This document shows, piece by piece, positions 4,400-50,474 of a stretch of 57,992 nt of DNA. The stretch comes from Girardia tigrina (lineage: Eukaryota), in the NCBI GenBank assembly GCA_001938485.1, contig MQRK01236553.1:10903-68894 (forward strand). The letters run 5' to 3'. Within the stretch, counting starts at the first letter, position 1, and every line of letters begins with the position of its first letter. The translations under genes and the position numbers were made by a program. Under the pieces are notes generated by a model that was not told the DNA's origin, searched no databases, and was given only the letters and a program-made list of their open reading frames with translations.

Positions 4400-7300
4400 T
4401 TTTTTTTTAAATGACGCATAGTCTTTCATCCACTCCGGATCGCGTCTTTCGCATTGTGGCCTTCCACCATACTCCTCGTGTTGCTGGTCAATATAACTTT
4501 CAACCAATGTTTCATCCACTTGCTCTTCTGGTCGCACTATCTGGTTCCCATCATTGTTTTTCTCGTTGCTATCGGCATCCGTCGCCGCCCTTGATAAATG
4601 ATGAGCCGACACCGTATCTGTTCTTCCGGTTGAGAATTTCACTTGAATTACTTGAGGAGAAACTACTTTTTAAACGATAACTTTTTCGACTTTCCCTTGG
4701 GCGTGTTACTTTTTCAGAAGCACCTCTTGTCCTGTCGCCAGCCACGGGGCAAACACAAACGGTATAGTCGGAGCTTCCATAAAGACGTCCCTCTCTTCCA
4801 AGGTTGATCGCCGACGAAATGCAAATAATAGTTCGTGGGGCGTTTTATAATCGAGTGCCCTAGAAGGATATGAACGAATGTTCATAAGTGCCATATTCAG
4901 CTGGAGTTCCCACTGAGATGAATGCAAATTTAATTGTTGAAGACGCAGCTGCACTGTTTTCCATTTTGTGCCATTCATGCGTTCTATCTGCCCGTTCCCT
5001 TGCGGATGGTATGGAGTTGAACGAGTACGCACGATGTTCCATTGGTGCAGGAAGTCGGAAAATTCACTTGACTCAAATTGAGTCCCTCGATCACTGTGTA
5101 TAAAGCTGGGTGGACCAAAAATAGTAAAAAGACTTGTCAAACGATTAATAACATTTCTGGTTGTCATGGATGGTAATGGGAATTCGAAAGGGTACCGACT
5201 ATATTCTTCTACGACCGTGAGGATATAAACATTCCGTGTAGTTGACTGCTTGGGTCCCATAAAATCAATTGCTATTCTCTGCCATGGTCTTGTAGCGTGG
5301 ATTACATTTCCTTGTGGCACTTTTGCAAATTTTGGTTTCATCCTTGCACAAATTTCGCACCCAGCAATATATTTTTCCACTTCCTTACGTAGACCTGACC
5401 TCTGAAATTGCTTCTCCAAATAATGGGTCAAACGGCTAATACCTGGATGCCACATGTTGTTGTGAATTATGGCAATTAATTCTTGATCATGCAAGAACGA
5501 ATTATTACTTGACACTGAGGCTATGCGGCTAAGAGGATCGGCCAATGCATTAAGATTACCAGGCCGATACTGAATTTGAAATTTATACTCTGCCAACCCG
5601 ATTCTCCAACGGTACAGCTTACTATTCTTGATCCTGTTTCGAGGTTGAGAATCAAAGAGGAACGCAACTCCTTATTGATCAGTGATGACAATAAATTTGC
5701 GGCCCAACAGAAAATGTCGAAAGTTCTCCACTGCGGCAACGATTGCGTAAGCTTCCAGCTTCACAGCTGCCCATCCGCTTTCATTTTGAGATAATCTGTG
5801 AGAAAAATAAGCCAATAGTTTCCCAGATTGAGAGAGAACAGCTCCAATCGATGTTGAGGACGCATCCGTTTCCGGGGGCAGTGGTGTTTCATCCTCTGGA
5901 ATCGCTAAAAATGACTTAGCAATGATGTTTTTGAGTGTTAAAATGGCTCGCACACAGTCTGTATTCAATGGGAAAACAGGACGTTCTTTTGCTTCAAAAA
6001 GTGGTTTTGCTGTCTCTGCAAAATCTGGAACCCACTTCGAGTTATACACCAACATTCCCACCAGGCGTTCCAATTCCTTTTTGTTCCGAGGTATTGGAAA
6101 TTCCAGTAATGGTTGCAACTGGGCTGGATCTGGCTTCATTATTCCATCTTCAAATACATGACCCAGGAAGGTAAGTTTCTTTTGATACAGTTGGCACTTC
6201 GACAAATTAAGGGTTAAATTCACTTTCCGTGCTCGAGTAATGAACTTTTGGAAGTTTGTGTCATGTTCTTGTCGAGAGCGGCCACAGATGACTACATCAT
6301 CGAAATAGTGAACAACTCCTTCAAAACCCGTAGTAATTTGTTTCATAACTCTACAGAATACTGGTACACCATTTGTTACACCAAAAGGAAGTCTAGTAAA
6401 CTGCCACAAATTACCGTCCGCTTCGAAAGTCGTGAATGGTTGGTCAGCTTCTGACAACGGGACTTGGTGGTATGTAGATCTTAAATCAAGTGTTATAAAG
6501 AAGCGGTGCCCGTGAAACTGATTGATGACCGATTGCATATGTGGTACAGGAAAAGCATCCAAGGCCGTGAATTTGTTGATGGTTGTTGAATAATCGACGC
6601 AAAGCCGCTTCTTCCCCGAAGTGTTTTCGGCAACAACCACTTGGGCTCGCCACTGTGAATGAGATTTCTTAATGATGCCTTCAGATTCCTGGCGCCTGAC
6701 TTCCTTTTGGATAAACTGCACGTCTTGGATTGAGCGAAATCTGAATGGAACTCGCACTGGTTTTGCCGAAATAGGTACTGTAAACAAGCTCACTGGCGGA
6801 ATGTTTAGCACAGATGGCCGATCTGAGATCTGACACAGGTCTTCCAAAACATCTGGAGCCACCGACGCAACTTTCAGAGGTGGAAGAGAACCAGGCAAAG
6901 AAAGCACCAATGCTTGGAACTGGTTCAATGTGTTCATACCCAGGATTGCCTTTTCATTGAGGCGATCCGCAATGAGTATTTTTGTTGTTACAGGTCCCTC
7001 TGTGAATTGGATCACCACTTGAGACTCCCCCACTATTCTCAGAACAGATGCGTCTACTTTGACCGCCCGATTAGTGCCCTTGTTAATCACAATACCTGCT
7101 ACTCGTGCTGTTGTCCGCGAAACAATAGACGCTTCACTACCACTATCAATCAACCAGTTAATTGACCTGCCATTGATGGACGCTTTCAAAAACTTCCGGT
7201 TATCAAATCTGGACTTCCGTCTTTCATTTATGACACCTACGATGACAGTAGATGATACTCCGACCTTTGCTTTACGGCAGACTTTCTGGAAATGCCCCAT

Positions 7301-8017
7301 GATCTTGCACAAATGGCACACTTTGTTTTTAGCCGGACAATCTAGTCTACTGTGCTTTGTTTTGGAACCGCACCAGTAACATGATCCAAAACTTTTTTGA
7401 AAATTGGATTGTGACACTCCTGCAATTGTATGACTNNNNNNNNNNNNNNNNNNNNNNNNNNNNNNNNNNNNNNNNNNNNNNNNNNNNNNNNNNNNNNNNN
7501 NNNNNNNNNNNNNNNNNNNNNNNNNNNNNNNNNNNNNNNNNNNNNNNNNNNNNNNNNNNNNNNNNNNNNNNNNNNNNNNNNNNNNNNNNNNNNNNNNNNN
7601 NNNNCAACAAAACGCATCCCGCAATGCTTCGTCAGCGAACGCTGTTGGGAAGTCACAATATTTTGAAATGGATCGGATTTGGCTCACAAAATCTCGGAGA
7701 CTTTGACCATGTTGCTGCTTGTGAGTGTACAGCCGAACTCTTTCCAATAGAATATTTTTGTCAGTTGCAAATTTCGTCCTGAAGAAATCCACTGGCCTTG
7801 AGAATGCAGTCATATTTTTGTTCTCATCAGAAATCTTAAGCCATTCCAGCTCATCATAGAGACTGGAGGCCTTCTGTCCCATACACAGAAGAAGTAAGTC
7901 TAGCTTTGAGTCGTCATCCACATCCTCAACTCGTAAATAACGCTGAAACTGTCGAATAAACTGGTCAAAGGATTCGGCTGTTGTTTCCAATAGTTGAGGA
8001 GCCTTGACTTTTGGCAT
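4400..8017 (-). pseudogene. Gypsy gag-pol polyprotein, single frame, disrupted
   Basis: ATG at 8017 (MPKVKAP). Zinc knuckles CYWCGSKTKHSRLDC and CHLCKIMGHFQKVC. Protease LIDSGSEA, RT LPFG/YFDD, RNase H TDASSTSIGAVL, integrase HHCC plus IDFMGP/SDRGTQF/GQIER. There is an in-frame TAA at 5672-5674 (ORF 4706-5596 is in the same frame), and a stop plus frameshift near 4706 before the GRTDTVS tail. Confidence 0.9.
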
Positions 8018-8036
8018 AATTTTTATGATCGTTGAG

Positions 8037-8210
8037 TGAAGTAATCGAAATGATTTATTCAAAACCAATACAAATGAGTACAACGATCTAAAAAGAAAAA
8101 CAAGATAATTATTACCAAACCACTCCACAACAGCAACACATAAACAAAAACCAAACATTCGCATAAAGTGAATATTAAAACAAATTGCAATTTAAAACAA
8201 ACATACCACA
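8037..8210 (-). repeat. 5' LTR (174 bp)
   Basis: Direct repeat of 4215-4388. On the minus strand it starts TGTGG, ends CTTCA and has AATAAA at 8059-8054. Confidence 0.95.
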
Positions 8211-13700: not shown

Positions 13701-16700
13701 ACAGAAGATATTCTATTTGTACAATGCAACCAATGATCACCGACACAAAGGATCTGGTAATATTTTTAAAGGTTGCGATTTCAGAATCTTTACGGTTAGT
13801 GGTTAAGGCAATGTGAATTCCATTCTTTCTAATCTCCTGTGTTAGAATTTAGAAAGAAAATTATATTCAAGCTTCGCATTCAACTTCTTTGTTGAGCATT
13901 TTTGAATGAAACCCAATGACATAATTTATTATATATTCATCATTTCCTTTTATAAGCTATAGAATTAATGTGAATTTCAGTCTGAAGACAAAGGAAAATC
14001 TGCCGAAATTAATAACTAAACAAGTATAAAAGTTGCACCCAGTCTTTTATTTTAAAATGTATATTAGTCACAGTTTTGATAACTTATGACCCCTAAATAT
14101 TGTGTTCTAAAATAGCTGACGCACCATGTATATATCTAGACTGCTGTAATTGATTTTGTGCTTTTTTAAATATTTAAATAAAAACAATATATTTCTTTAT
14201 TTAGGATAAGCCTAATTCAATAATTACATTTAATGATACTAATAACAATTTATTGGACAAATTACAAAAATTCGTTGGTGATACATGTAAACTTCAGTCG
14301 ATTAATATCATTAATCACAAGTAACTCCATTAGAAATAAAAAATATACTTTTAATACATCAAAAATTAGACGAATATTTGAGAAATTTCTGCTGGAAAAT
14401 GACGATTTGAAAAAATCTCAATTCTCATTTAATAATAATATTTATAATTTCATTGAAAAATTGTACGAAATTCTTAATATTCAAGAGACATTTAATGAAA
14501 TGTTGTTGAAAGAGGCTGTTGAAATCGTCAAAGATAAAACATTGGCTTTGAAAAAAGACACAAAAAACTGGAAAAATCACAAGTTTGTTTTTTTTTCTTA
14601 TCGTTACAAAAAAGAAATTCTTTCGTTTTAGTCAGGTTAAAAATAACAATATATTTTGCCTGAATGACATCCACTCGATTTCTGTTATTTAAATAAATCT
14701 TACCATATAAAAAGCCCGTATTTCACGAAACATAAGATGCACCGGACTTTAAGACCTGTTTTAAATTTATTTTTACTGTGCGCGAATCAAGAGATGTGAT
14801 GTAGAAAATCGAAGAGTCACGAAACAGATAAGTTTATAAGGAAATATAATTTGGTAAAATATTATTTTGATAGTTCTGATTCGAAAATAATGTTTCTAAA
14901 CCCTATTTAACCTCTAGACACTGAGCTTAGATTAACATTTTTAGAGGGTCTCGGTTCGAATAATTATAAAAAAAGTTCCAATATTTAAATAAATAATTAT
15001 TATATGACTCTTTTCTACTTATTTTCTATTTATATTTTAATATTTTGGACGTGATGTAAGTGCTGTATGCATGACTACAGTTTATGGAAGGAAAAAATGA
15101 TTCCTAACCGGTTTGATTGAAGCTGTCCTGTACAAGATGTCTAAATCCATCTTAGATACTCTCAGAATCAAACTTGTTTAAACATTAGGTGGATCTTTAA
15201 CTTTAATTCTTACAAGATTATTCGATCCATGTGCTTGTCTATAAAAATGTTTGATCAATTCAAGGTTACTTATATTTCCTTTCTAAAATTTCAAGATTGT
15301 ACAATAATAATTCACGAATAAAATAGTTATAATTAAACATTTATTGAAGATCCAAATTTTGGTGTAGTCTTCGACTATGTTATGCTGATAATGAAAACGG
15401 AAGAATTTCTAATAAAATGAGAATTTAAATAAAAATATTCCTTTTTCTCCAGGCGAAAAATTTACGAGGAATTTACGAAAGAAAGTCAAAAACGCGACAC
15501 CGAATTTAAGCGGTATTGTAGTCGATATAATCTAAAAGAAACGGCCCATATTGCATATTTGAAAGCCGAAGAAAATAAATCCCTATCAAGAAATCAAGTC
15601 GATAATGTAAACTTCAGAAAACTAATCCTTATTCCATATTTAAGTATCATTGTCTTCGTTCAGTTTCACAAATTGTATTTGACCCGCCAATCCGAATACG
15701 ATCAATCAAAAGCCGATTATATAACAGTGTTGGATAATTTCAATAAATTCCAGTCGAATCATTATTCGGTCAGTTTGCTTGAATGGAGCCTCAAGGCAGA
15801 AGAAATCGAGAACACTCGCTACGGAATCTTGAAGTCAACTTTCACCAATTTTCTCGAACTTTGTCGGTCTGTAGCAAGCAAATTTAACGAAATCGCCGAT
15901 AAAATCGAACAAGAATGTGATTCTATTGATTGTGTAAAGGTAGAAATTGATTTAATTTAAATTATTGATTAATTATATAATTATTGCTATTTATTATTAT
16001 CAGATATCGAATGAGAGACAGCGTCTATGACGTCAGAGATGAGCAATAAGTTCTCTTTCTCTCTCTTTATTTTGAATTATTATATTATTTATTTTGTTAT
16101 GATTATTTGTAATAATAATTATTTTTATTAATTTTAATTATCATTATTCTTATATTAAATACTATTAATAGTTTATTATTATTTAGAATAATAATAGTTA
16201 CTATTTTTATTATTACTGTTCGAGTTTTAGTTTATTATTCATAATTAAGTAATAATAAAATCAGTAAATAATTGGTAAAATTCTAATTAATAATTGGATC
16301 AAGATGCCTTTAACGGTCCCTAATTATCAATAGCACATTCAATAAGTACAAACTTTTATTTATTAATAGATAAATGATAAAATAATTTGAGTGTTGCTTC
16401 CTTATTCTTGACCCTGATAAGTAGCACTGAACTGTAAATAAATTTAAAATATTAAAATAAATATGGATAATTACAAAAAACTAATAAAATATACATTAAA
16501 ATGTGTATACATAAAACATATACGATATATTTTAATTCAGCAATTATCATTTAGACCAGTGGTTCTCAACCTTTTTTTTCATGTAGCGCCCCCTTTTTAT
16601 TAATTTCGAAACGTAATCTTGGCTGTGCCCTCCCCATTCTCCCAAAGAAAATTCAAACGAATCTTTCAAATTGGAATACAAAATGAGAAGAAAAAGAAAA

Positions 16701-22700: not shown

Positions 22701-25700
22701 TTAACAATACATTGAAATTTAACAATAATATGAAATTTATTTAGTTCTATAAATTTGCCAGTTTAAATTTATTTATTATAAAAATTAAAATTAATAAGAG
22801 AAAAAAATAAAATTGAATTTAAAAAGTACTAGCAATTATGATAATGAATAAGGAATAATTTGTGAGCAGGTTTTAAATAACTTGACTTGAATACAATATA
22901 CAAATTATACAATTTACAGGGGTTTTCAGTTGAAAAGTGACACTTTTTCATTAGAAATGCTAAATGTAAGCATAAACGAATGCTATTTGTTAGATTTGTT
23001 CTTCCAGTCATGGGTAAATCTCAATTATTGAAAAAATGGATTTTTATCTTTTTAAGAATTCATAAAAATAAATATGCTATGTAAAGCTATTCGAAATGGT
23101 ATATTTTAATTAAGTAAAATGTTTTAAATTTTTTTCAAGTGTCGCATTTCAACTGAAAAAACCATATTTTTTGCAAATCATAATATCAATATAATGATGT
23201 TGTTAAACGAAATATCTAAAGATTAGTCAACAATAAAATCTCCGTTGTTGTTGATTATTTCCTCCCGTCGTTCAATAAGTTTCTCAATACCTTCAATCTT
23301 GACTGAAAAAATTCGTCCAAGCAAATGCTGTGAATTCCATGTCATTTTTGAATGATACGGCGTGTAATGCATTCGATAGCGATCGAGAGAGATGTAAATC
23401 TGATGGCGCCAAGTTAGGTAAATATAGGGGTTGAGGGAACACTTCGCATTTACGTTCTTGAATCGCTGCTTTTGTTATATTGACAATGTGAGGACTTGCG
23501 TTGTTGTACTGCCGAAGAACACTGTTTTACCGACTTCGTCTTTTTTGCTGAATTGTTTAATCCGGTACCGTTGTTTAGTATAGAACTCCATATTAACTAT
23601 TTGTTGCGTCAAAGCAGTTCATGATGGATTATGCCCTCTCAGTACCATCAAACACACAATAATCTTTCGAGGATGAAGATCATGTTTTGTTCGAAGAATA
23701 GTTGCTTCAAATAGATGTACATGTACCATTTTCCCATCAAAATTCCCACGTTGAAGTTCGAAAACCAATGGCGTGTAGTACTTCCAGGCATTGCTTCTTT
23801 AGAATATACAAACAAATCTCATGAGCAGATTTCGAGGCTTTAACACTTCGATTAAATCCAAAAGGCAGATAGTGTCGAAAATGATTGTCATTTAATGAGC
23901 TAAAATTAAAAGCAAAAATTAAAGAAATATGAAAATTGAACATATCATCTCTTAGAACAAAAACCATATAGCTAATAACATAAATTGTTTTGTGAAAGAG
24001 TTTCATTTATGAGTATATTTTTTAATTTAAAAAGAGTTCATGAAGTATTCCTCAATCTACCCATTACATTATTTGAAAGATTATTTTATTATTTTAAAAT
24101 TTATTTATTTTGATTTACTATTTTTTTATTTATTTTTTTTAATAAATTGATTTATCTTTAAATTATTATTTCTAATAGTTTAATAACGACAATAATAATA
24201 ATAAACTATAATTAAAGTAATATGAGAATAAAATCTGTATTAATATCTGTAGTTTCATTTTTTAATTTTTATTATCAGTTTTTTTAAAAATTAATTTGAT
24301 TTTTTTTAGAATATTTTTCTATTATTTATATTCAATATTGCCTTAAGAAATTTAAGTTGAAATGTTTTAAATTATATTTTGATGCAATATGTCAATTTTA
24401 TGTCATGTATTGAATAATTATGATTTTAACCAAAATACTTACTTTTAATATAATTAATTTACTAAATAACTGAAAATTGTAAAAATTAATTTTAGATTTT
24501 GTTTATGAATAATTCTTCCATGTTATCAATTGAAAATTCAAGATTAAAAATCACGCATTTTTCATTCAAATAATCGCATTTTTATATTGTAAAAATAAAA
24601 TTTTTTCGACATTTTAGGTGTGTGAATCAGCCTTATGCGTAACGATATCCGCGTTTATCGGAGTTATGAAACTGGTTTTGTTACGTCACCGTTTATTAAA
24701 AAGGAAAAATTTTATAATTCTATCACAAATGCTACAGTGAACGTGGGGATTCAGCAGTTCATAAGTAATTGCATGTATTACTAGAGTTAGATAGAGTACC
24801 TTAACTCTTTGATGCTTAATGGGATAAAAAATTACCAACCATATGTTACAATAACTTACACAAATATTTGTAAAATTTTAGGATATTATTCCACTTTACG
24901 ATAAATAAATGTTCTATTTACTTGACTTTAGTCAGCATTCATTTACCGTCCAAAGCAATCTTAATTTGTGAAACAGTCTTTATACCTAAAAATCCAAAGT
25001 CTGAAAATCTTAGTTATCAAATAAAACAATACCTTTATAAGGTTAGTTTCGTGGCATTTGGTAAATGTAATGGGAATTAAGGTACTGTATTTTCTTTAAC
25101 TTATGAGAACTCTTGTTATAAAATCTTAGAATAAAGTTTTAGCACGTATACAGTTTTCCTGTTTTTCAAAATAGAAATACAGGCTCTTTGGACAAATATT
25201 TTAGTATATAAAGTCATGTCACAATCACTATAAAAGAAAGATAAAGTATAATAATAATCCTTGATGAACTTTCTTTTAATAATTAATGTTTAATGGTGTT
25301 TTTCAAGTTAATTAGGATCGGTCGCGAAATCCCAGTTCTTCTCCATATAAATTGCACCATAATTTAAAGATGACCCCAACATATTTCTTGTACTTTAATT
25401 TACTTCTTTTTCGTCATTTTATACACGTTTTTTTGTTTTTTAACGAATTTATTAAGGTATATTTGATATTTAGATTATATATCAGAATAGCTTGTAAAAT
25501 TTAAAATATCAGTCAGTGATATAAGAAATATTTGTTATCTTTCAGGTGCTATATTCTAGAAATGTGTAATTTTAGATTTGTTTTTATAAAAAATAGAAAT
25601 CGTCAATTTCCGCGTGTGCAAACATAAAAATGTCTGTAGAAATCTGTTGGGCATTATTCCTGTAGCGCTGTCACAATAATGATTCATTCCCATAATTTCT

Positions 25701-31700: not shown

Positions 31701-34700
31701 TAATGAAAAAAATTCAATTTTTAAAATCTCGTTTTTAATAAATAGCTTATCAGTATTTATAATTCCATATTTTTATGTATAAGAAATCTGGCCAAAAGAA
31801 AACTAAAGTTCCCCAAGAAAAATTGTTTAAATAATTGTTATTTGTGTTATTAATAAATTTTGGTGTTAATGAATTATAATCTTGATCAAGAACCCAACAA
31901 TACCTATCAGAATTTATACGATAATTTATTTTATATGAATAATTTGAATAGTTGTTCAAATTAAAAAATTCTCAATGTTGTCTCCCAAATCTAACATAAC
32001 ATTTCATTTATTAATCAAATTCTCAAGAGTGTAATTTATTAATTTAAGGTCTTAATGCTTCACTTTTAATAAGTCGTAAGAAGTAGAAACCTGCATTATT
32101 AAAAAATCCTTTCTCTATTGAACGAATAAAAAAACGATTTTTTGTCTTTGAGTAGTGCAAAAGAGATACATGAAGCTTATTTCTTTTCTAGGGTAATAAC
32201 TGAACTTTCTAAAAAAAATGAGAGATTTCCTTGAGAGACGATTGGAAGATGCTGCTTAAATCACTGAAAATGACTAAAACTTTTGAATATCTATTTTTCA
32301 TAGATTGCCTGAAAAAGTTGTCAAAGGTCGGAAACCTGCAAACGCTTCATTCTATTTTTCACTTTACAATTTTAATAGTATTTTTATATTTTCACAAATA
32401 AAAGAAAAAATTTACAATAGTTAGAAAGTATTGTGAAATTATGGATATTTTAAAGTCCCTCAAAATGTAAATTGGTACAAAGATCAAGAACGCGGGAAAA
32501 TACACTTTCAATAAAAAGTGGTAAGAAAATAAAGGAAAATAGACTTTCATTAAAAAGTGAGAAGATGAATTATTCTCTCTCCTTGTTATGAAAAACATAT
32601 GCCTCTTTGCCATCGCAAAATTACTACCATTAAAAGTAAATGGTAAAACAGTATTATGACTTTCACAAAAATCACTAATATTCAAAATTAAAGGGTTTAA
32701 ACGAGTTATTGAGTTCAATTGAGTTCAACGAGTGTTTTCGAAATGTCCGACTGAAGGGAGCATCTGGGCCCATAGGGATGATCCCTCTTGTTTCGGATTG
32801 CTAGTCGACGGTCGATATTCGTGAAAGTCATACGGCAAATTTCTCTGCACAATCAAATCGAAATTCATTGCTATCGAATTTTTAGGTAGAAGGATTTCAA
32901 CGTAAAGAGGTTGTTGAGAAACAGTGAGAAGTCCCGAGTTCAGTTTGGAGAGAATACCGCTCTTTGTCATGAGTTCGTACCCGAGCTGTTGTTCGACAAG
33001 TCTTCCAATCGTCTCCAGTATATTTACATGTGCCAATAGATCCTCTGGTTTTACCTTTACTTGCAAATACATCTCAGTTACATCGCTTACTAATGCAATT
33101 TTATGTTTCCGAAACCTCAATAACACATCGACGATATCGCGTTGCAATTTTGGACCAGTTTCAATCCAATCATTCAAACTCATTCCCCGAGACATTGCAG
33201 CTGCATCGAAAACTATACGTACTTTTGTAGTTTCTTTATCCCTTCGGATCACTGGAAAATGAGGGACCCACCATCCGGTTTCTAATTCTTCCTCACTATT
33301 CAATTTTCTAATATATCCTTTTTTGTTATAATNNTCAATAATGCGATGATATTCCAACTTTAATTCTTCATCTTTTGCGAATCTTCTCATCAAACTTTCT
33401 AGTCGTCTCTTTGCCATGTCCAAGTTCCCTTCCGGTTCCAAAGTTCCAACTTTCCAAGGCAGACTCACCTGATAACGATCTTCATTCCAACACATTGAAG
33501 CAACACTTCTCTGCCAAACTTCTTGATCGTTAGGAGTCCACTCCTTCTTCTGACAAGGTTCTTCGAGCTCCCAAAATCGTTTGACTTCCTCGTCCAAGTT
33601 TCGGATACAATAAGTCCAAAGTGTTTTATCTCGGTTCTGATTCCCAAGGTAGGATGGCACTATTCCTATGCATGACCACCCCAAAGGTGTCAATCTTGCG
33701 ATCGGTTCTCCTTCATTTCCTCTCACTTCTTCTATTGAAGAATGCAATTCAGGATAATTCGCTCCTATGAGCATATCCACCGATCCTTTTGCTTCGAAAT
33801 GAGGAAATGGAACATCTTTCAAATGATCCCAATTGGGAGCTAATTTTCTCCAATTTAAGGAAGTCATATTCCCAACGATACTGCTCACCACTGGCGCACG
33901 AATTCTCTTCTTGACTTTTCCGTTCATACTGTTCAGCTCAAAATTTACTTCCTTGACATTTAATCGTCGTTTGACACCTCCAATCACACCGACGGAAAGA
34001 TTTTCATCCCTTCCATCCAAACCCAACTCTTTTACCACCTTTTCACTAATGTAAGTGCCGGAACTCGCATCGTCAAGGAGAGCATTAATTACCAAAATTT
34101 TTTTGTCTTGTTTAACAATTACTGGAACTGTTCTTAGTGCGACATGACGATTTCCACACGTATTCCCAGTCTCAGACGTAACTAAAGATGTCTCTCCATC
34201 AATTACCGAATCAACTTTTCTTCCAACACTCTCTCTTTTATCATAATGAAGTAATAAATGGTGCATTTTACCACACTGACCACAACTTCTCATGAATCTG
34301 CAATCCTTGACTTGATGATTTCCCCTGAGGCAGTTGAAGCACAAATTCTCCTTTTTTACAATGTCACATCGTGCCGCAACAGTCAGGTCTTGGAAATCAC
34401 CACACTTGTCCAGTGAATGATCCTTAAGACATTTTACACATTTCCTCCAACTCTCTTGTCTGGATCTCGATTCACTGTTGTTGCCATGGGTTACATAGGA
34501 AGCCACTTTATCTATTCTTCGAGGACTCACTCCAAATAATGTTTCCTGAACACCCCTCCTCAAACTCGCTTCTTCCTGTATCCACTCGTGCAACTTCTCG
34601 ATGCTTCTCTCCTCCGATTGGTTGCGAAACCATTTTTCATATTTCAATAACCTCTTTGCTGGGAGCTTCTTCAACAATGTCTGAAGCAAAACTCCGTCCT

Positions 34701-36060
34701 GTAGCTCTGGCTCCTTGTTAATCTCCTTCAGTCTTACAACCACATTTTCGATCATCTCGGCAAATTTCTCGATTTCCCCAACTGACTCCTCTTTGACAAT
34801 CCGGAAATTATCTATATCTTCCAAAACTGAAAGATACAGCCGTCTAGCTCCTCCAAACCTTGACTCCAAACGTTGCAATGCTTTATCGAAGGCAGACTCC
34901 CCATAGCCTAAACTCTCGATCAGTTTCAAGGCTGGCCCAGTCAAATAATTCCTCAAGTGAAGAAGTTTTTCCTCCTTAGAAGCACTTGCCTGTTCGATGC
35001 AATGCTTGAACGCTGCTCTCCAACTTTCATATTCCTTCACGTTACCAGAAAACGTTGGAATCGAAAGTTTCTTAAACCCAGACAAAGTTCGTTTTTCTGT
35101 TGCACTGTCATCGTTATTACTCAAGCTTTCAGCATTAATCAACTTTTTCTCCTCCCTTCCTTGCACTATATGTTCAATATCCTCATATTTCGACTCTAGA
35201 TCTTTGAGATCTTTTTCTAGTTCTTGAACCTGATCCTCTTTTTCCAATTTTATGCCGAGCACAGTTAAATCATCCAGTTCTTCTATCACTTGAAGGTATT
35301 TCTCCTCGTATCGTCGTCTAGCCTCTTTTCTATTCGATTAATAATTTCTGAGCAGAACTCGATAAAATTTGATTGTCGATAAATACCATATCGAAGATGG
35401 CCTCGATAAATTCTGTTGTAAATTTCATGACTTCACAATTGTCCTTGTTCGTATCAATGNNNNNNNNNNNNNNNNNNNNNNNNNNNNNNNNNNNNNNNNN
35501 NNNNNNNNNNNTAATCAATGACTTCAACAATGTCGATGAATTATTGGCGAATTCATCCGAGAAATATTTCAATAAAACTCGAGCGAGATCTCGAGATATT
35601 TCATACAACGTTTCATCGTAGAAATTTAGAAACGATAAAATTTGATGATGTCCATCGGTGACAGCAAATCAATGGTGCAATTGTGAGAAGTGTTCGAGAG
35701 GAATATGAAAATTCGCCTGCATTCATCGACACTCAATTGCCGAGTGGCTGTAATGTTCAATAAATCGCTATCAATCTTCATTAGATATTCAAAACTCAAA
35801 GTGTCGGCAAATAATATTTATTGATTCAAAAACTGAGGCAACAACAATCACGCAAGCGATTAAATTGATGAATTAAAACAACATTCCAGTATTATTAAAC
35901 TGGATTTTTCTCAAAATTTAATCACAATACAAAAAAAACTTTATAAATATATATAATTTTTTTTATGTTTAATTTTAATAACAATTAAATATATAGATAT
36001 ATATATATATNNNNNNNNNNNNNNNNNNNNNNNNNNNNNNNNNNNNNNNNNNNNNNNNNN

Positions 36061-36113
<53 letters not shown>

Positions 36114-39100
36114 CAATTCTTAACAACGAGTTATTATCAAAAGATATCCTTTCATCAGAGCATTTCTCTCCCTTATTAAATTGACAGAATGGTGTGGACA
36201 AATACAGTGGGATTATCGAATTCTTTCTTAAGAAGGACAATGATAGATCTGAAGTCTTTGAAAAAGACGAAGAGAAATTGATGATTGATTTTCAACGACA
36301 TTTCGTTTCTGTAACACTTGCAAATGGAACTGATCGATTTATCAAATGAAAATTTATTAACATATCAATTTAACTTCAAAGGTAATCCAGTGAAGACATT
36401 CGAAAATGCAGTGGAGTACTCCTGACTACATCAGCATATCAATCGTTCATTCAGTACTTTTTGGTCAATATATTGTTGTGAATCAACATTTTCCTATTTA
36501 ACTCTCATCAAATCAAAGCTGATAACCCAACCGACAGATGTTTGTTTTTGAAGATTGTTTGAGTTTTGAAGCGAAAGCTCTTTGAACTTAGTTTAAAAGC
36601 ATTGGTTAAAAGTAAACAATCAATAAAATTACAAAGTCCGTTTTAGTTACAGCTTCATTATGTTTACACACTTGTTAATAATACAGGGTTTTTAAAAACA
36701 TGTATCTTTGTCCACAAACCTTTGTAAGAAGTTAGAACTGCTACGTGCATTTTCACTAAAAAGGCTCCCCTCCTAAAATTATGAGGTCTTCTAAACCACG
36801 ATTTTATTCTAAAGATATGAATCTTCTGAGAAAATGAAAACAGTAAAGGGACATATTCTCAAACCAGCCATTTTTTCAAGGTACTGTACACATATTTTAA
36901 CACAAATGTATGATGACTCAAAATCTCTGAATGAATTATTTCGAAGGTATTAAAATATAAATCAAACCCATATATGATTAATTCACTATTATAAAATAAA
37001 CGTTGGATTATTATAGTTTACAACAAATATCTCCAGTTTATTTAAAATGTAATTCCTCCAGGGCATTGTTGACATATTTCGAATCCATTTGTAATCCAAA
37101 GTGGTCATGTGGTAAAATTATTTAAGTTCACACTTATTTCGTAATGCTAAAAGTGAATTGAAATACTGATTTAATATGTCTGTAATTTCGTCCAGAATCC
37201 TTATAAACAATACAATCATGACCTGGCATAAAAGCTTTATGAATCACCCCTGTCGTGGTCATTACCTTTTCAAACTGAGTGAAATTTCTGAACAAATGAC
37301 TATCTTATGTCTAATGTCTTCAAATCTAACAAAGTCTTGACCTCTCTCAGGAATATATGTCTGTCATTCGTTAGAAAGATGATTAATTTAATATTCTTTA
37401 TCCTTAAATTTTGCTTTTAAAATCCTTTAGAGATATTTCCTAGCGTAGTATTAGTTACACTTTTAGAAATGTATCCACCTATTTGATTTGATCACATTTG
37501 ATAATTAAGGTAATGAAAAAGATTATTTCGGAGAAGTTTTTACACATGATGACGCGAAGTGGTTCAGATACATATAAGGTTACTAATGTGTTTTTACGCA
37601 ATATTGTTATTTTTTTAGGTTAATAATAACGAATACTAATATTTCATATTAGTGACAACTTGTTGAGATATATTAAAATGCATCTTGTCATTAAATCATT
37701 ATTTACTAGGACTTTTTGGCTTTAGGTCAATTGGTCTAAGAAATTGGTCTAAATAAATAAATTAACTAACAAAAAATTTGTCTAAAATTACGATAAGGAT
37801 AATGGTCTCCCAATTTCGATATCAAGATGTGGAACTGCTATGGAAGTATTTTGGAAGGATTATCTAAGACAAACAATTATATTGAGGCATGATATCGTAA
37901 CTTTCTTTTCCAAGTATCCGGTAATCATCCAAATATATTGGAAGTTTATCACTGCAATAAAAAATGAACAATCACTAAACGAACTAAAAGGTGAACAATT
38001 TGTTAGTTGACAGCAGCTAGCAAGGAAAAAATATTTTGATTGTGCAGAGAGACTAAAAACAATTATATAGACTTGGGATGATGAAATGACTAAAATTTTC
38101 ACAGTGGTGTAGCTCATAATGTGAAATGTTAATACAGTCTGTTCATTGGCGGATTTTTTACAATTTTAATTTCACTTATTGTTATTTTGATTGTTTTCTT
38201 TTAGACTAATTTGTGTTTAGACCAGTTGGTCGGCTCCCGACTATTTATATCTAAATTTAGTTTTCTGTTTCACACAGGGTTTCTATTTTTATGTTGTTTC
38301 TTTTAGAATTTTTGAAGAGCAACTTTTGGAGTATCTTTGGTTTGTGACACCATTTCTTGTAGATTTTTATAACAAACTTTTGGTCATTCTACATTTCACG
38401 GAATTCTTCAAATACAATCTTGTAAAAAGATTTTCATTTTCTATCAAGACAGTGATTATCCTTTTATTCATTTTTTTGACATATAATGAAATTTAAATAA
38501 TTTTTCTTACAAATTATTCATACAAATATTTACCATTTCGTTTAAAAACTTCATTTTACTTGAAATATAATTATCATGTATTCGGTTTTTGCATTTCTAA
38601 TGAACCAGTGATTTGAATATCTGTGTTAGAATTCTATTAGATGAAATCATATGTTCGATTTTGTAGTCATAAAGTATTGGTTAAATAAGAGACTTTTGTC
38701 ATCAATGATGATCATTTCTTCTCGATCTTAGCGAACAAAAAGATCGTTTTCACGTTCTACTTGTATTCTGTGTTTATTCATATTCAAAAGTTATGAAGAT
38801 TTTCATTCCATACCGCCAGAAAAGACTGTCTTTAAAAACATTTTAACCTTTTAAGTCTTTATGCGTACCTAAATAAGACTTACGGTTCTCTATTTGAAAC
38901 GTGATATAAAGGAGACTTACCAATATTGAATTATTGGCAATACCGTTTTTGTTATTCAACACTGAATAGTTCCACTTTTTACTTTAAATATTTTTTGTAT
39001 TTATGTTTTCTTAATTGAAACATGTAATTTATATGCTATTTTATTTTAAAATAACTATATATAGTTTATTTTAATCTTCAGTTGCTGAGAATAAATATTA

Positions 39101-45800: not shown

Positions 45801-48800
45801 CTAAAATATGTATCAACAGATCGAATATTAATTATAAGATACCAAGTAGTAATATGAATTTCTAAATCAAGTTCGATTCTGGAACCCGAATCTAGGATGT
45901 TTTCGTGTGAATTAATATATTAACCTCATATTATGAGTATTTTATTAGGTATTCTTGAAATTGATTTCAATTTTTAAAAACCAATTTTAAGTATATTGAA
46001 AAGTTAAAAAGATGTATAAAGTAGAGAATTTATCAATATATAATGTGGATCGTTTGTTAAGCAGTATAACTTTGTTAAAGATATTTTTCAGCTACTTTCC
46101 TCAACTATATCATTTTAAGTTGAGATACAATATTGGAAATTAATTTTGGGAATATTTAACCGTTTTTTGTAAGCGTTAACATATTAAAATGACGAAAATA
46201 GAGCTATATTCGAGAATTATAGTTGATTATTTGAGAATGAAACCCAGATATATTTATTATTTGTAAGGACGTCGTGAATGTAAAATTGTTAATTTCAGGA
46301 ACACTCTATAGCTAAATTAAATTTACAAAAAAACTATCATAATGAACATATATTTTGCCATTTAATTAATTTAGTTTACGTTATATATTTAATTTAATTC
46401 TTTTGATCCAGGAATCATCTAATAAATCTGTGCAAAATGAGATTGAAAGTTTGGAAGCCCTTTTGTAATTTGATTTTGCGTTGTTTGGGGAATATTCATG
46501 TTGAATTTGATCTAGGGAAGAAAAGCTTTCACTGTACGCGAGCTATGACTTCAACGAATCTGATGATAAAGAAATCGATGACATTAAAAACAAGATAGAA
46601 TCTCTAAAAAATGTAAGAATTTGTTTGAAAAAACTAATATATTAGTAGACAAATTTTTTATTATTTGAAAGGTATGAAAATCTATTTATTATTTGTGGGC
46701 ATATCTGCAAATCATTTAGTCGTAATGACAGATCATCGGGATTCTATAACTTATGACATTCTCCAACACCCCTGAATTTGATGAAATTTGCCGTATCTTT
46801 CCAAACCTTAAATATTACATAATTTTCTTCATCTTAAGAACAATCTTCTTCAGATTGGAGATCATTGTCAAAGAACTCTATTCTTCAAGGCGTTATTTTA
46901 CAGGAGCTTATCATGGATAGGCGGATCAAATTCTTTCGTCTCTACATTATCATCATCATACTACCATGACTGCATTTCATTGAATAAATATTATCTTACT
47001 AATCGAAGTTTTTAACTTTGATAAATATTCGGCTCAGTCTGTTCATCTCTTAGCGCACACCACCTTTCTATGTTCACTGTGTTGAAAAGTATTTGGTGTT
47101 CGAGATCGAACATACAATAGCTATATTGTTCATGCCATTTAACGAGATTTTCATACTGGTGCTGTTTTAAAGCACGTTCTTGAATACTTTACCTAGAGGA
47201 TTTGAAGTAGAACAATAGTCTCTGTATAGCCCATTGACAAGCACCAATAAAAGCCTTGTAATGTTCTAATTTTTAATTGCTGTTTTTGGGTTATTTTTTG
47301 ATGTCGTATGAACACTTGACGCCTATTAAATAGATTGTATATTTAGTCCAGTAGCATATTGGCTCCTGAAATGGGACTTAAGCACACTGAACATTGAAAT
47401 GGATTTCACAATGGAATCTTAAAGTGTGAGCAAATCATGAAGTATTATATTCTGACAGGATGCAAAATATTTAACTTGTGTGTTTTCCTTATTGAAATTT
47501 GTGATAATATTTAATATTAAAAGAATTAAGCCAATAAATTTTTTTTATTTTTATGTGTATTAATTTTGACAAATTGACCATCATCATCAGAACAGGTAAT
47601 TATTGAAAATAATGCTACTTATATAGTGCAGTTATTGAGTGTGCAATCAATACGTCATCAGTTCGTCGTTTGAAAACACTAAATACAGTTGTAGAGATTG
47701 TAGTTTAAACATTAATCTTGTAATGAGTGTAACACCATATACATAGTAGATACATCAGGTCATGCCAATAAGGGAATCCAAGAACACAGTCGTAATGAAT
47801 TTGGGAATAATGTTGCAGTACATGGAAAGCGTTGTGAAGGGGACAGATAATATCACAGTACGGATAAAATTAACCGGGACAAGCCTAAAATTTCCACAAA
47901 ACCAGCGTCACACCTGCTGTACAAAGGGAAAGTACACTGCACATGACATGTGTTTCTACTACCCGTGTGACTCTTTCTCACACGCACACACACACACACA
48001 CGAGTAAAGCCAAGTAAATGAACTCACATGCACACACATTAAGTAGAGGCCAAAAGATAATGTAAGTAATGACACACACACTACACACCAGTACATCATG
48101 TCTGTTATTGGGTATGGGGAGTCTATAAATAGAATTCTTAGAAACCCATTATTTGTCATTCTGTTCTGCAGGCGCAATGAGTGAAACCACAATAGGGAAA
48201 CGAGAGCGAGTGATTGCATTGTATTTGCACAACAGTAAGACGCAACGCGAGATTGCTACAGATTTGAATTTATCTAAGAGTGCTGTGAATCGTATCATTA
48301 TGAGATAGAATTCTACAGAAAGCACAGAGAGTGGACGCAAGGGACGTTGCGGCAGGAAGGAGAAGTTGACCAGGCATGCTAAGAGTCTTATCGTTCGAGA
48401 AGCTAAGAAGTTTCCATCGAAGACTGCTCAGGAAATTCGCAGCAGCATGTGCAGCATTGACTCGAGTGTGTGCCTCGACACAGTGAAGAAACTCCTGAGA
48501 AAATGTGAAATGTATGCCTATCGACCACTTGGGATTCCCTTCCTTAACACCAATTGGCTCACGTGCATGTGGTGTACGACGAGGATGACTGGAGTCAAGT
48601 AAGCGAAATTTCATTTAATTGTCATTGCTTACCTTATTCTTATGTCACTGCTGGTCCAAACTCTTACTGTACAAGTCATATTCAGTGACGAGACGACGAT
48701 GGAATTGGGACACTAAGCAAAACCATTTGTTCGACGTTCAAAGGGTTGCCGCATCCGTGAGGTCTACACTGTCCGGAATGTAACATTCGCCCGGAAGGTG

Positions 48801-50474
48801 TTGTTTTGGGGAATCATATCTGCGAAAGGCCCAGGCTGCCTCGTCCCCGTTCAAGGCACTCTGAATGCTGAAATGTATGTCAACCTTGTGCGGCAATATC
48901 TTCTACCGCATGTTGCCATGTGGTTTCCCAACAGCTCCTGGGAGTTTCAACAGGATAACGCACCCTGCCACAAGGCAGAGCGAACCATGGTATTCTTCCA
49001 TCAGCAAGGCATCCAGCTCCTTGATTGGGCGCCCTACTCATCGCATGTTAGCCCTATTGAGAACGTATGGTGCATGATGAAATGGAAAGTTTACAATGTT
49101 GGCAGCGCCTCCACAGTTGAAGAAGTGATTGCGCAAGCTCAACACCTTCGGCACAATTCATAACCTGTGCGTGTCTCTCTGCTCAAATATGCCTGAAAGA
49201 GTCCATAAACTGTTAAACAGTCGTGGGGGTCCCATTTTCCTATAAAATAAACACCTGCTTGCTTGGATTTCATTTGTGATATGTTTTTGTTGGGGGGAAA
49301 ATGAAATTTTAGGTTTGTCCCGGTTAATTTTATCCGTACTGTAATATTATAAATTTCTGTGCATTCGATTTAAGAATTATACAGAGAGATTTGCATATGA
49401 AGCGTTATAAGATATTTGGATCCTAATATTAACGTCCAAATTACATTCTCTACAACTTTAGTGAGTGTTTTTAAATGAATAACTGATGACGTATTGATTG
49501 TATAATCATTAACTGTAGTACATAAGTAACATTCTTTTTATTAATTAACTATTTTGATGATGATAGTCAATCCGTTGAAATTAATAAACATGAAAATAAA
49601 ATAAAACTAATTGATTTAAGTCTTTTGATTTTAATCAGTTGCCAATTTTTTAAAAATGTATTCATATTCAATATTAATTTGTTAGATATGCAATTAAAAA
49701 GAAATAAAAATTAAGTTTCATTTTTGAAATTTTAGGTATGGTAAAATATTTCAAATACAATTTGAAAATTTGATTATTGAATGTCATTTAGTGTGCTAAC
49801 TGTTAAAAAGAAGTTTTAACTATTAGTACCGTTTGGTAAAAAAACAGTTTTTCCTTTGAAAACATTTTTGAAGAAGATTGTATTGTCTCAAGCATTATAA
49901 CCCTACAAAAGACTAAATTATCAAATATAAATCATGCTTATAAATCAATTGTCGAAACATAGCACATTAATTTCATATTAATTTATTATTATCATTGAAT
50001 ATTTGTATTTAATTTATAACTTCTCTCCACTTGACACATTCAATTTACACATTGACTTTTTTCTTTCTGACACTGACTAAAATAGACCTGTTAGTAAATT
50101 TTATTACGATATCGATTTTCTTATATTAACTTTATTTTTTTATTTTTCGCTTGTAAATTATAAAATTGATTTTCTTATTTTCCATTTCTGCATGTACAGA
50201 AAATATTTACAAATAATTATAAAAGGATCATTGTATTGCATACATACTTCTTACAGCATCTTTCAAAAAAGTATAGAACATCTTTTAATTGACTTTGACC
50301 ATCATTGGCTAAATAGGAATACAAGGATAGTATGATCAAAGGACCAGTTTTAATTCAAATTAACAATAAATTAAATTGTTTTGTCATGTAAACTATCCAA
50401 ATATTTAGTTGCTGGAGATGTTTAAATATTCTTATCGAAACTCGTTCAAAGACATTTTTTTAAAATACTCTTTA

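What the first reader, a model, noticed from the sequence alone, without database searches (positions are those of the whole stretch)
32725..35815. PSMD5-like / BEL gag-pro-RT / PSMD5-like chimera with an in-frame fusion ORF
Seen: the 854-aa minus-strand ORF is BEL/Pao until ...KVKPED (33040), then continues without a stop for ~105 aa of non-BEL sequence. The BEL piece is also cut inside gag at ~35335, and I see no LTRs or TSD. Inference from recalled sequence: the tail resembles the middle of PSMD5 (ED.L...N.LE...G...G...P...LP), and 35330-35815 resembles the PSMD5 N-terminal part on the same strand and in the right order. Roughly 60-70 codons are missing between the two pieces, replaced by BEL sequence. 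The downstream junction falls on a shared Glu-Asp (GAGGAT), consistent with microhomology-driven template switching between a host mRNA and BEL RNA. This is the reverse of the usual LTR-flanked gene capture. The BEL frame is still open over 2.3 kb and lies antisense in a host intron.
Basis: partly seen in the sequence, partly recalled or inferred. Interest (0 to 1): 0.72.

Follow-up and report, generated by a model that had tools for sequence, protein, structure and literature searches.

The report
Retrotransposon repeats stuffed with host genes
This stretch is a broken copy of a BEL/Pao retrotransposon whose long terminal repeats carry intron-free pieces of host genes such as PSMD5, in frame with a captured ubiquitin that likely cuts this foreign leader off the element's own Gag protein and so would let the element spread host-gene fragments through the genome.

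Summary
The sequence is as described, but the reading must be turned round. The two PSMD5-like flanks are remnants of the element's own LTRs. Window 36125-32733 (minus) runs TGTT...AACA between matching 5-bp target duplications (CTCGT). The same ~1.15-kb PSMD5-bearing repeat occurs in dozens to hundreds of places, mostly as solo LTRs, and it also follows pol and the polypurine tract in other copies. The locus is likely one young provirus with two internal deletions; it is single-copy, and its fusion ORF is accidental.

The family is the real finding. Its LTRs (289-1689 bp) carry different sense-strand pieces of host coding sequence: PSMD5, an LRR gene, a Nup214-type propeller, TCP-1, a phosphatase. 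Introns are lost where parents were found. The pieces mostly lie in one reading frame that crosses the primer-binding site, an HSP90 piece and a ubiquitin (LRLQGG) into Gag-Pol. Ubiquitin looks constrained; the PSMD5 cargo looks neutral. Likely mechanism: host deubiquitinases free Gag from any in-frame leader, as in cytopathic pestiviruses, so the LTR tolerates and amplifies captured mRNA. Two captures end at host exon ends, hinting at splicing. Cleavage, transcription start and expression are untested.

The parts
36126..36130 (-). upstream target-site duplication CTCGT
35331..36125 (-). 5' LTR remnant (about LTR nt 1-700): TGTTAAGAATTGA start, (AT)n tract, two N gaps
35817..35822 (-). AATAAA at the position shared by LTR types; cargo starts right after it, so cargo is inferred to lie in U5
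   Evidence: sequence
35331..35781 (-). captured PSMD5 N-terminal coding piece from its ATG; a 49-bp parental intron lies just at its 3' edge; this copy has a 1-bp shift near 35640 and an N gap at 35459-35511
35330..35331 (-). junction 1 (LTR to gag), 1-bp homology, out of frame with an immediate TAG; about 1.2 kb lost (LTR end, PBS, HSP90 piece, ubiquitin, gag start)
33043..35330 (-). BEL/Pao internal piece: gag (DUF1759), zinc knuckles, protease, RT start
33072..33084 (-). 13-mer GATGTAACTGAGA shared by BEL RT and the LTR's PSMD5 piece, 29 and 26 nt before the junction; likely aligned the second deletion
33039..33042 (-). junction 2 (RT to 3' LTR), GATC microhomology, in frame; about 4.2 kb lost
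32884..33042 (-). PSMD5 middle piece, ending at the parental exon end (within 1 nt)
32819..32883 (-). remnant of an earlier captured LRR gene (spans that gene's exon 1/2 junction)
32733..32818 (-). LTR 3' end ...GGACATTTCGAAAACA, in the frame that continues through the PBS in whole elements
32728..32732 (-). downstream target-site duplication CTCGT
32725..35337 (-). 870-codon open frame (gag-pro-RT fused to LTR cargo), single copy, no known start or promoter

Best explanation
Window 36125-32733 is one BEL/Pao provirus that likely lost two internal stretches, and its PSMD5 flanks are pieces of the family's LTR, which carries intron-free host-gene fragments in frame with a captured ubiquitin that likely releases Gag from this leader.

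Shown: the repeat is the LTR (PBS after it, polypurine tract before it, 5-bp TSD); LTR interiors are interchangeable host-mRNA pieces; one frame runs from the LTR through PBS, HSP90 piece and ubiquitin into Gag-Pol.

Inferred: the cargo sits in U5, so it is in the 5' leader of the genomic RNA and is copied into both LTRs by minus strong-stop synthesis. Translation starts at the first AUG in the LTR and gives cargo-HSP90 piece-ubiquitin-Gag-Pol. Host ubiquitin C-terminal hydrolases cut after Gly-Gly. Captures that keep the frame open survive and are amplified, mostly as solo LTRs; the cargo protein is a passenger. The window copy is a dead end.
For: LTR identity: 24 of 42 two-ended copies have an exact 5-bp TSD, 7 one mismatch, 4 are followed by the PBS, 4 preceded by the PPT, 3 other. 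There are 11 exact LTR-end+PBS and 181 LTR-end matches, controls 0. PSMD5-type LTRs follow integrase and PPT in C206773 and C215786.

RNA origin: PSMD5 introns of 49 bp and ~4.7 kb and LRR-gene introns of about 45 and 49 bp are absent from the LTRs.

Cargos: of 122 ORFs from all six frames of 37 LTR regions, 13 hit cellular Pfam families at E<=1e-4, and 10 of the 13 are in the Gag frame.

Frame: stops after nt 260 in 40 whole LTRs number 331 in the Gag frame against 686 and 580. The longest open reach is in the Gag frame in 66 of 91 ends and in 10 of 12 ends found among 32 loci picked by cargo DNA. The leader from LTR end to gag ATG is 516, 564, 624 or 627 nt with 0-1 stops in 4 of 10 copies, against 10-16 stops in the other frames. 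P0001 has HSP90-ubiquitin-Gag-Pol in one ORF.

Ubiquitin: Pfam E 1e-27; shared variants 11 nonsynonymous to 13 synonymous (pN/pS about 0.24), against 20 to 6 (about 0.9) in PSMD5 cargo; Gly-Gly present in 13 of 16 copies. Precedent: a truncated ubiquitin behind a host fragment is cut from NS3 by cellular hydrolases in BVDV CP Rit (PMC8310069, passages).
Against: A crude test of shared-block offsets showed no excess of multiples of three (36/25/41). An alignment-based indel test was weak: 10 of 24 shared against 13 of 66 private events in frame, with events split by the aligner. 21 of 91 ends have their longest reach in frame 2; the short phosphatase type switches to frame 2 partway; one LTR region holds an antisense NDUS4 piece. 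6 of 10 leaders are frameshifted. The ubiquitin ends LRLQGG where ubiquitin has LRLRGG, and its Met1 is Val, so cleavage is not assured. In 3 of 16 copies the match ends just before Gly-Gly. Copies are related, so counts are not independent, and the selection contrast rests on about 25 variants per side. No transcription start, poly(A) site or protein data. No listed contig bridges junction 1 or 2 (32 of 1447 pieces shown).
Confidence: 0.62

Rival explanations
1. Same family biology, different origin of this locus: during minus strong-stop synthesis RT jumped from U5 onto the element's own gag-pol RNA and back, capturing 2.3 kb of itself as LTR cargo in place of 148 bp; the locus is a solo LTR of that product.
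For: The two LTR breakpoints are ordered, non-overlapping and only 148 bp apart. The family plainly swaps U5 contents. Solo LTRs with TSD are the commonest form.
Against: The shared 13-mer lies 5' of junction 2 and the BEL version of the intervening bases is kept. That fits annealing at the DNA level or left-to-right copying, not right-to-left minus-strand copying (inference). Two independent deletions would leave such a small gap roughly one time in eight (rough estimate).
Confidence: 0.2
2. The LTR cargo is untranslated or irrelevant: captures are neutral, Gag starts at an AUG near the LTR end or after ubiquitin, and the frame bias reflects one or two founder events plus shared descent.
For: PSMD5 cargo is not constrained at amino-acid level. 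Offset and indel tests are negative or weak. An in-frame ATG lies about 30 nt before the LTR end in most types, and a 289-bp LTR with no cargo exists.
Against: Five unrelated named cargos plus HSP90 and ubiquitin share one frame, also in a TCP-1 type with a different LTR 3' end. In clean copies the first ATG after AATAAA is usually in that frame.
Confidence: 0.25
3. One reading: BEL RNA was switched into a PSMD5 mRNA, giving a retrocopy with a BEL insert and a potentially functional fusion gene.
For: Order and strand of the pieces, intron loss, in-frame junction 2.
Against: The flanks carry LTR termini, TSD, an LRR remnant and the LTR end, and match dozens of LTR copies better (0.5-3% different) than the gene (about 5%). 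Junction 1 has a stop. The chimera is single-copy.
Confidence: 0.02
4. Misassembly of an LTR copy and an internal fragment.
For: Fragmented assembly (255,254 contigs), N gaps in the left LTR, no bridging contig listed.
Against: The junctions share only 1 and 4 bp, too little for an assembler overlap. The TSD matches across 3.4 kb. Contigs of runs X1 and X2 run from the unique flank 29-30 nt into the LTR end (below the tool's 31-nt bridging rule).
Confidence: 0.05

Closest known systems
BEL/Pao LTR retrotransposons (de la Chaux and Wagner 2011, PMC3118150; passages seen)
   Same: DUF1759 gag, protease, RT, Peptidase_A17, integrase in PR-RT-IN order; LTRs, PBS, PPT, 5-bp TSD.
   Different: Ubiquitin and an HSP90 piece before Gag, and coding host fragments inside the LTR. 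The paper has 0 occurrences of 'ubiquitin'. Only 1 of 77 long homologues (P0001, same family) joins ubiquitin to BEL domains.
LTR-mediated retroposition (Tan et al. 2016, PMC5131818; passages seen)
   Same: Partial, intron-free, sense-strand mRNA copies; multi-gene chimeras; further rounds of mobilisation; BEL elements among the carriers.
   Different: There the retrocopies are described as internal and flanked by discontinuous LTR elements that are non-autonomous. Here they are inside the LTR, reach dozens to hundreds of copies per type, sit beside complete pol, share Gag's frame, and two end at exon ends.
Ubiquitin insertions of cytopathic pestiviruses, e.g. BVDV CP Rit (PMC8310069, PMC13517609; passages seen)
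   Same: Host fragment plus N-terminally altered ubiquitin placed directly before an element protein; mosaic inserts. This is what it likely works like.
   Different: RNA virus, cleavage shown experimentally; here a retrotransposon, LRLQGG, cleavage untested.
Cassandra, Helenus, Ajax TRIMs (PMC10886601; abstract seen)
   Same: Cellular RNA-derived sequence inside LTRs, duplicated with them.
   Different: Those carry 5S rRNA or tRNA promoters in non-autonomous elements; here protein-coding mRNA pieces, many different ones, in a family with full gag-pol.
Yeast Ty1 (PMC4974528; passages seen)
   Same: PBS lies inside the GAG reading frame, so an ORF crossing the PBS has a precedent.
   Different: No exchangeable host-derived leader and no ubiquitin reported in the passages seen.

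Membership tests
BEL/Pao LTR retrotransposon | Gag with DUF1759 and zinc knuckles, aspartic protease, RT, Peptidase_A17, integrase, in that order | tested here: met
BEL/Pao LTR retrotransposon | TG...CA LTRs with short TSD | tested here: met
   TGTT...AACA, 5-bp TSD exact in 24 of 42 two-ended copies and at this locus
BEL/Pao LTR retrotransposon | PBS after 5' LTR, PPT before 3' LTR | tested here: met
   that the PBS matches initiator tRNA-Met is recalled, not tested
BEL/Pao LTR retrotransposon | Phylogenetic placement in a named superfamily | not tested
   no tree built; nearest non-family hits are 33-37% identical
LTR-mediated retrocopy (Tan type) | Intron loss against the parent gene | tested here: met
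   PSMD5, LRR gene
LTR-mediated retrocopy (Tan type) | Retrocopy internal, flanked by discontinuous element sequence | tested here: not met
   cargo lies between the two termini of single LTRs
LTR-mediated retrocopy (Tan type) | Microsimilarity (median 6 bp) at host/element junctions | tested here: inconclusive
   two 3' junctions fall at exon ends with at most 1 shared base; 5' junctions not compared with parents
Ubiquitin processing-signal fusion (pestivirus-like) | Ubiquitin in frame, ending Gly-Gly directly before the released protein | tested here: met
Ubiquitin processing-signal fusion (pestivirus-like) | Canonical LRLRGG end | tested here: not met
   LRLQGG
Ubiquitin processing-signal fusion (pestivirus-like) | Cleavage by host hydrolases | not testable with these tools
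   needs a reporter or proteomics
   first ATG at codon 195, stop at junction 1, single copy; expression not shown

The most novel reading that the evidence does not exclude
This BEL family runs a standing exon trap in its LTR. 5' exons of host pre-mRNAs are joined at their splice donors (read-in or trans-splicing, or an RT jump onto a freed 5' exon) to sites in U5, fixed in both LTRs by strong-stop synthesis, layered over earlier captures, and made harmless by a captured ubiquitin that cleaves them from Gag. The result is hundreds of promoter-bearing, intron-free N-terminal fragments of housekeeping genes scattered as solo LTRs.
Probability: 0.3. Interest if true: 0.88.

Novelty: new variant of a known kind. 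Interest (0 to 1): 0.7.

Why it matters
The locus alone is ordinary debris. The family shows a route of gene duplication that standard annotation would misread: host coding fragments amplified inside LTRs, where they inflate apparent copy numbers of PSMD5, TCP-1, Nup214-like and phosphatase genes. Because they derive from a transposon they might draw silencing small RNAs onto essential host genes (inference). If ubiquitin frees Gag from any in-frame leader, a retrotransposon has converged on the pestivirus trick, and this would explain why capture here need not cost autonomy. The exon-end junctions make it testable whether splicing rather than template switching feeds LTR gene capture. I found no such family in paper searches (open-access library only; listings seen; Repbase and subscription journals not searchable; supplements not opened).

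Tried and rejected
Reverse capture at this locus: rejected (see rivals). DNA-transposon or SINE origin of the repeat: rejected; only 4-bp inverted ends, and PBS/PPT linkage. Other chimera copies: none among 40 scored of 99 and 40 of 68 candidates. Offset mod-3 test: negative, confounded by private indels; alignment indel test weak. Intron reading of the AT-rich stretch after the PBS: no conserved GT among the 10 leaders printed. Metagenome scans for relatives: 106 and 72 pattern hits, none confirmed. Homologue search with the F-BAR exon: none. Pfam on 99 and 139 window ORFs found no host exon near the element (the short set was 139 of 273 plus-strand frames, chosen by GC). ESM Atlas gave nothing for one unnamed cargo. 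Parents of the TCP-1 and Nup-type cargos were crowded out by LTR copies. Weak Pfam hits (TssD, YscD, Viral_FcR, HTH; E 0.0007-0.008) were treated as chance. Read laying used contigs only and cannot show expression or strand. A parent-versus-LTR alignment returned nothing and was not used.
Full report
Observation. The minus-strand frame 35337-32725 is open for 870 codons. The 854-aa figure counts from a GTG; the first ATG is codon 195. Pfam gives DUF1759 gag, an aspartyl protease and, in the tail, Proteasom_PSMB. Residues 1-766 are 96% identical to P0001.

Both flanks are one repeat. Each flank hits dozens of places in G000 (42 matches from 40 scored of 491 candidates; 47 from 40 of 166), often side by side. 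In 16 uninterrupted copies the gap filled here by 2288 bp of BEL is 146-148 bp (10), 208-212 bp (5) or N-gapped (1). The repeat starts TGTTAAGAATTGA and ends TTCGAAAACA. In the window it spans 36125-32733 with CTCGT on both sides.

The repeat is the LTR of the same BEL family. Its 3' end is followed by TTCTGGTAGCA and, 720-840 bp on, by the gag found in the window. Its 5' end follows integrase and a purine tract. Exact patterns give 11 LTR-end+PBS and 181 LTR-end matches, controls 0. Of 42 two-ended copies, 24 have an exact 5-bp TSD, 7 one mismatch, 4 a PBS, 4 a PPT, 3 other; two of the 42 are second ends of tandemly duplicated copies. C215786 holds RT through integrase followed by a PSMD5-type LTR, 3393 bp after the junction-2 site. 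The internal region has all BEL/Pao domains.

The locus. The simplest reading is one provirus missing about 1.2 kb (LTR end to early gag) and about 4.2 kb (RT to mid 3' LTR). Junction 1 shares 1 bp and meets TAG at once. Junction 2 shares GATC, and a 13-mer common to RT and the PSMD5 piece lies 29 and 26 nt upstream, which suggests DNA-level annealing (inference). No second copy spans either junction. Private letters are 1 of 448, 17 of 2286 and 1 of 310 in the three pieces, so the insert is young and fewer than one stop is expected; the open frame needs no selection. Contigs of X1 and X2 reach 29-30 nt from the unique flank into the LTR end, but none of the 32 listed of 1447 pieces bridges an internal junction. 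An F-BAR-like exon upstream and an SH3 exon beyond the window, both on plus, make an antisense intronic position likely.

PSMD5 came through an mRNA. The parent (C219589) has a 49-bp and a ~4.7-kb intron that the LTR lacks precisely. The captured piece stops at the next exon end, within 1 nt, and continues into a remnant of an LRR gene carried by other LTRs. That gene's parent (L202) has short introns, also absent from the LTR. Captures are therefore layered.

LTR interiors are interchangeable. Lengths run 289-1689 bp. Scanning 122 ORFs from all six frames of 37 chosen LTR regions gave 13 hits at E<=1e-4: PSMD5, LRR x3, NUP159/214 propeller, TCP-1 and phosphatase x4 in one sense frame; phosphatase x2 in another sense frame; one antisense NDUS4. 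TCP-1, LRR and Nup types have at least 40 matches each (125, 118, 584 candidates). The PSMD5, TCP-1, phosphatase and Nup pieces match the N-terminal part of their profiles. Several types remain unnamed.

One frame joins cargo to Gag. The frame ending ...FEN at the LTR end continues through the PBS, an HSP90 piece (E 2e-23) and ubiquitin (E 1e-27) into Gag. In 4 of 10 copies the leader is 516, 564, 624 or 627 nt with 0-1 stops; the other 6 are shifted. P0001 carries HSP90-ubiquitin-Gag-Pol as one ORF and is the only such protein among 77 hits. Stops in 40 whole LTRs are 331, 686 and 580 by frame. The longest reach is in this frame in 66 of 91 ends (21 and 4 in the others) and in 10 of 12 ends found among 32 further loci, three of which look like one insertion. 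The long phosphatase type is wholly in this frame; the short type shifts to frame 2 partway, while the Gag frame stays open in L107. Against this, two indel tests were negative or weak, and copies are not independent.

Ubiquitin. Shared variants are 11 nonsynonymous to 13 synonymous, against 20 to 6 in the PSMD5 cargo; Gly-Gly is present in 13 of 16 copies. Met1 is Val and the end is LRLQGG rather than LRLRGG. In BVDV CP Rit a host fragment plus truncated ubiquitin is cut from NS3 by cellular hydrolases (PMC8310069, passages). Ty1 shows that a PBS can lie inside GAG (PMC4974528, passages).

Mechanism (inferred). A shared AATAAA lies about 140-320 nt into the LTRs and the PSMD5 and LRR types diverge right after it; the window's last 310 LTR bases have none. 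The cargo is thus likely U5, in the RNA leader, and is copied to both LTRs. An upstream AUG would normally hamper Gag; in frame and followed by ubiquitin it would simply give a precursor that is cut. How cargo enters is open. In both cases where the parent's exon end is held (PSMD5, phosphatase) the piece stops there, with the last G read as A. By rough estimate that is about a 1% chance each. It points to splicing or to an RT jump onto a free 5' exon rather than the microhomology switches of Tan et al. (PMC5131818, passages), but two cases are few.

Novelty. Each part has a precedent: LTR-mediated retroposition, RNA genes inside TRIM LTRs (PMC10886601, abstract), extra domains in planarian Burro polyproteins (PMC6431247, passages), pestivirus ubiquitin. 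I did not find the combination in searches (listings only; supplements not opened). An unchecked scan note, e1-7907883, describes the same layout in another genome; I reached this reading before seeing it and could not check that genome. The organism of G000 was not determined.

Verdict. The locus is a real but ordinary remnant (structure about 85% sure). The family is a new variant of a known kind with an unusual, testable mechanism (about 60%). Interest 0.70.

Noticed in passing
window 4706-8191 (-): A Gypsy-type element: protease, RT, RNase H and integrase frames, with an N gap.
   Followed up: no
window 48309-49160 (+) and 23740-24006 (-): Tc1/mariner transposase remains (HTH_Tnp_Tc3_2, DDE_3, HTH_48).
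   Followed up: no
window 15433-15957 (+) and L193:5992-6219 (+): F-BAR-like and SH3 exons, probably one FNBP1/CIP4-like host gene spanning the element; exons between were not found.
   Followed up: partly
L163, L164 (and L207): The phosphatase (and TCP-1) cargo also occurs in repeats with different ends from this LTR, suggesting cargo exchange with another repeat family.
   Followed up: no
L141, about 300-700 nt before the LTR end: Antisense NDUS4 (complex I subunit) piece apparently inside an LTR; the one antisense cargo seen.
   Followed up: partly
L079:919-1260, L074: A subfamily with a longer HSP90 piece in the leader (812-830 nt leaders) paired with Nup-type LTRs.
   Followed up: partly
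L087, L090, L051, L206; joint 32856/35390 in runs X1, X2: A PSMD5-LTR subtype with an in-frame internal deletion, multi-copy here and deep in two other DNA runs.
   Followed up: partly
L110, L122, L147, L115, L125, L133: LTR types with open frames of 130-276 codons and no confident Pfam name; probably further host-gene pieces. L133 is open in frame 2, not the Gag frame.
   Followed up: partly
L053:2-841 region: The ubiquitin is preceded by RLRG and followed by Met, as in a polyubiquitin repeat, suggesting capture from a polyubiquitin mRNA.
   Followed up: no
G000:C219589 and C106000: Parental PSMD5 gene, with a duplicate or allelic copy of one exon on C106000; its 5' exons lie beyond the contig end.
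   Followed up: partly
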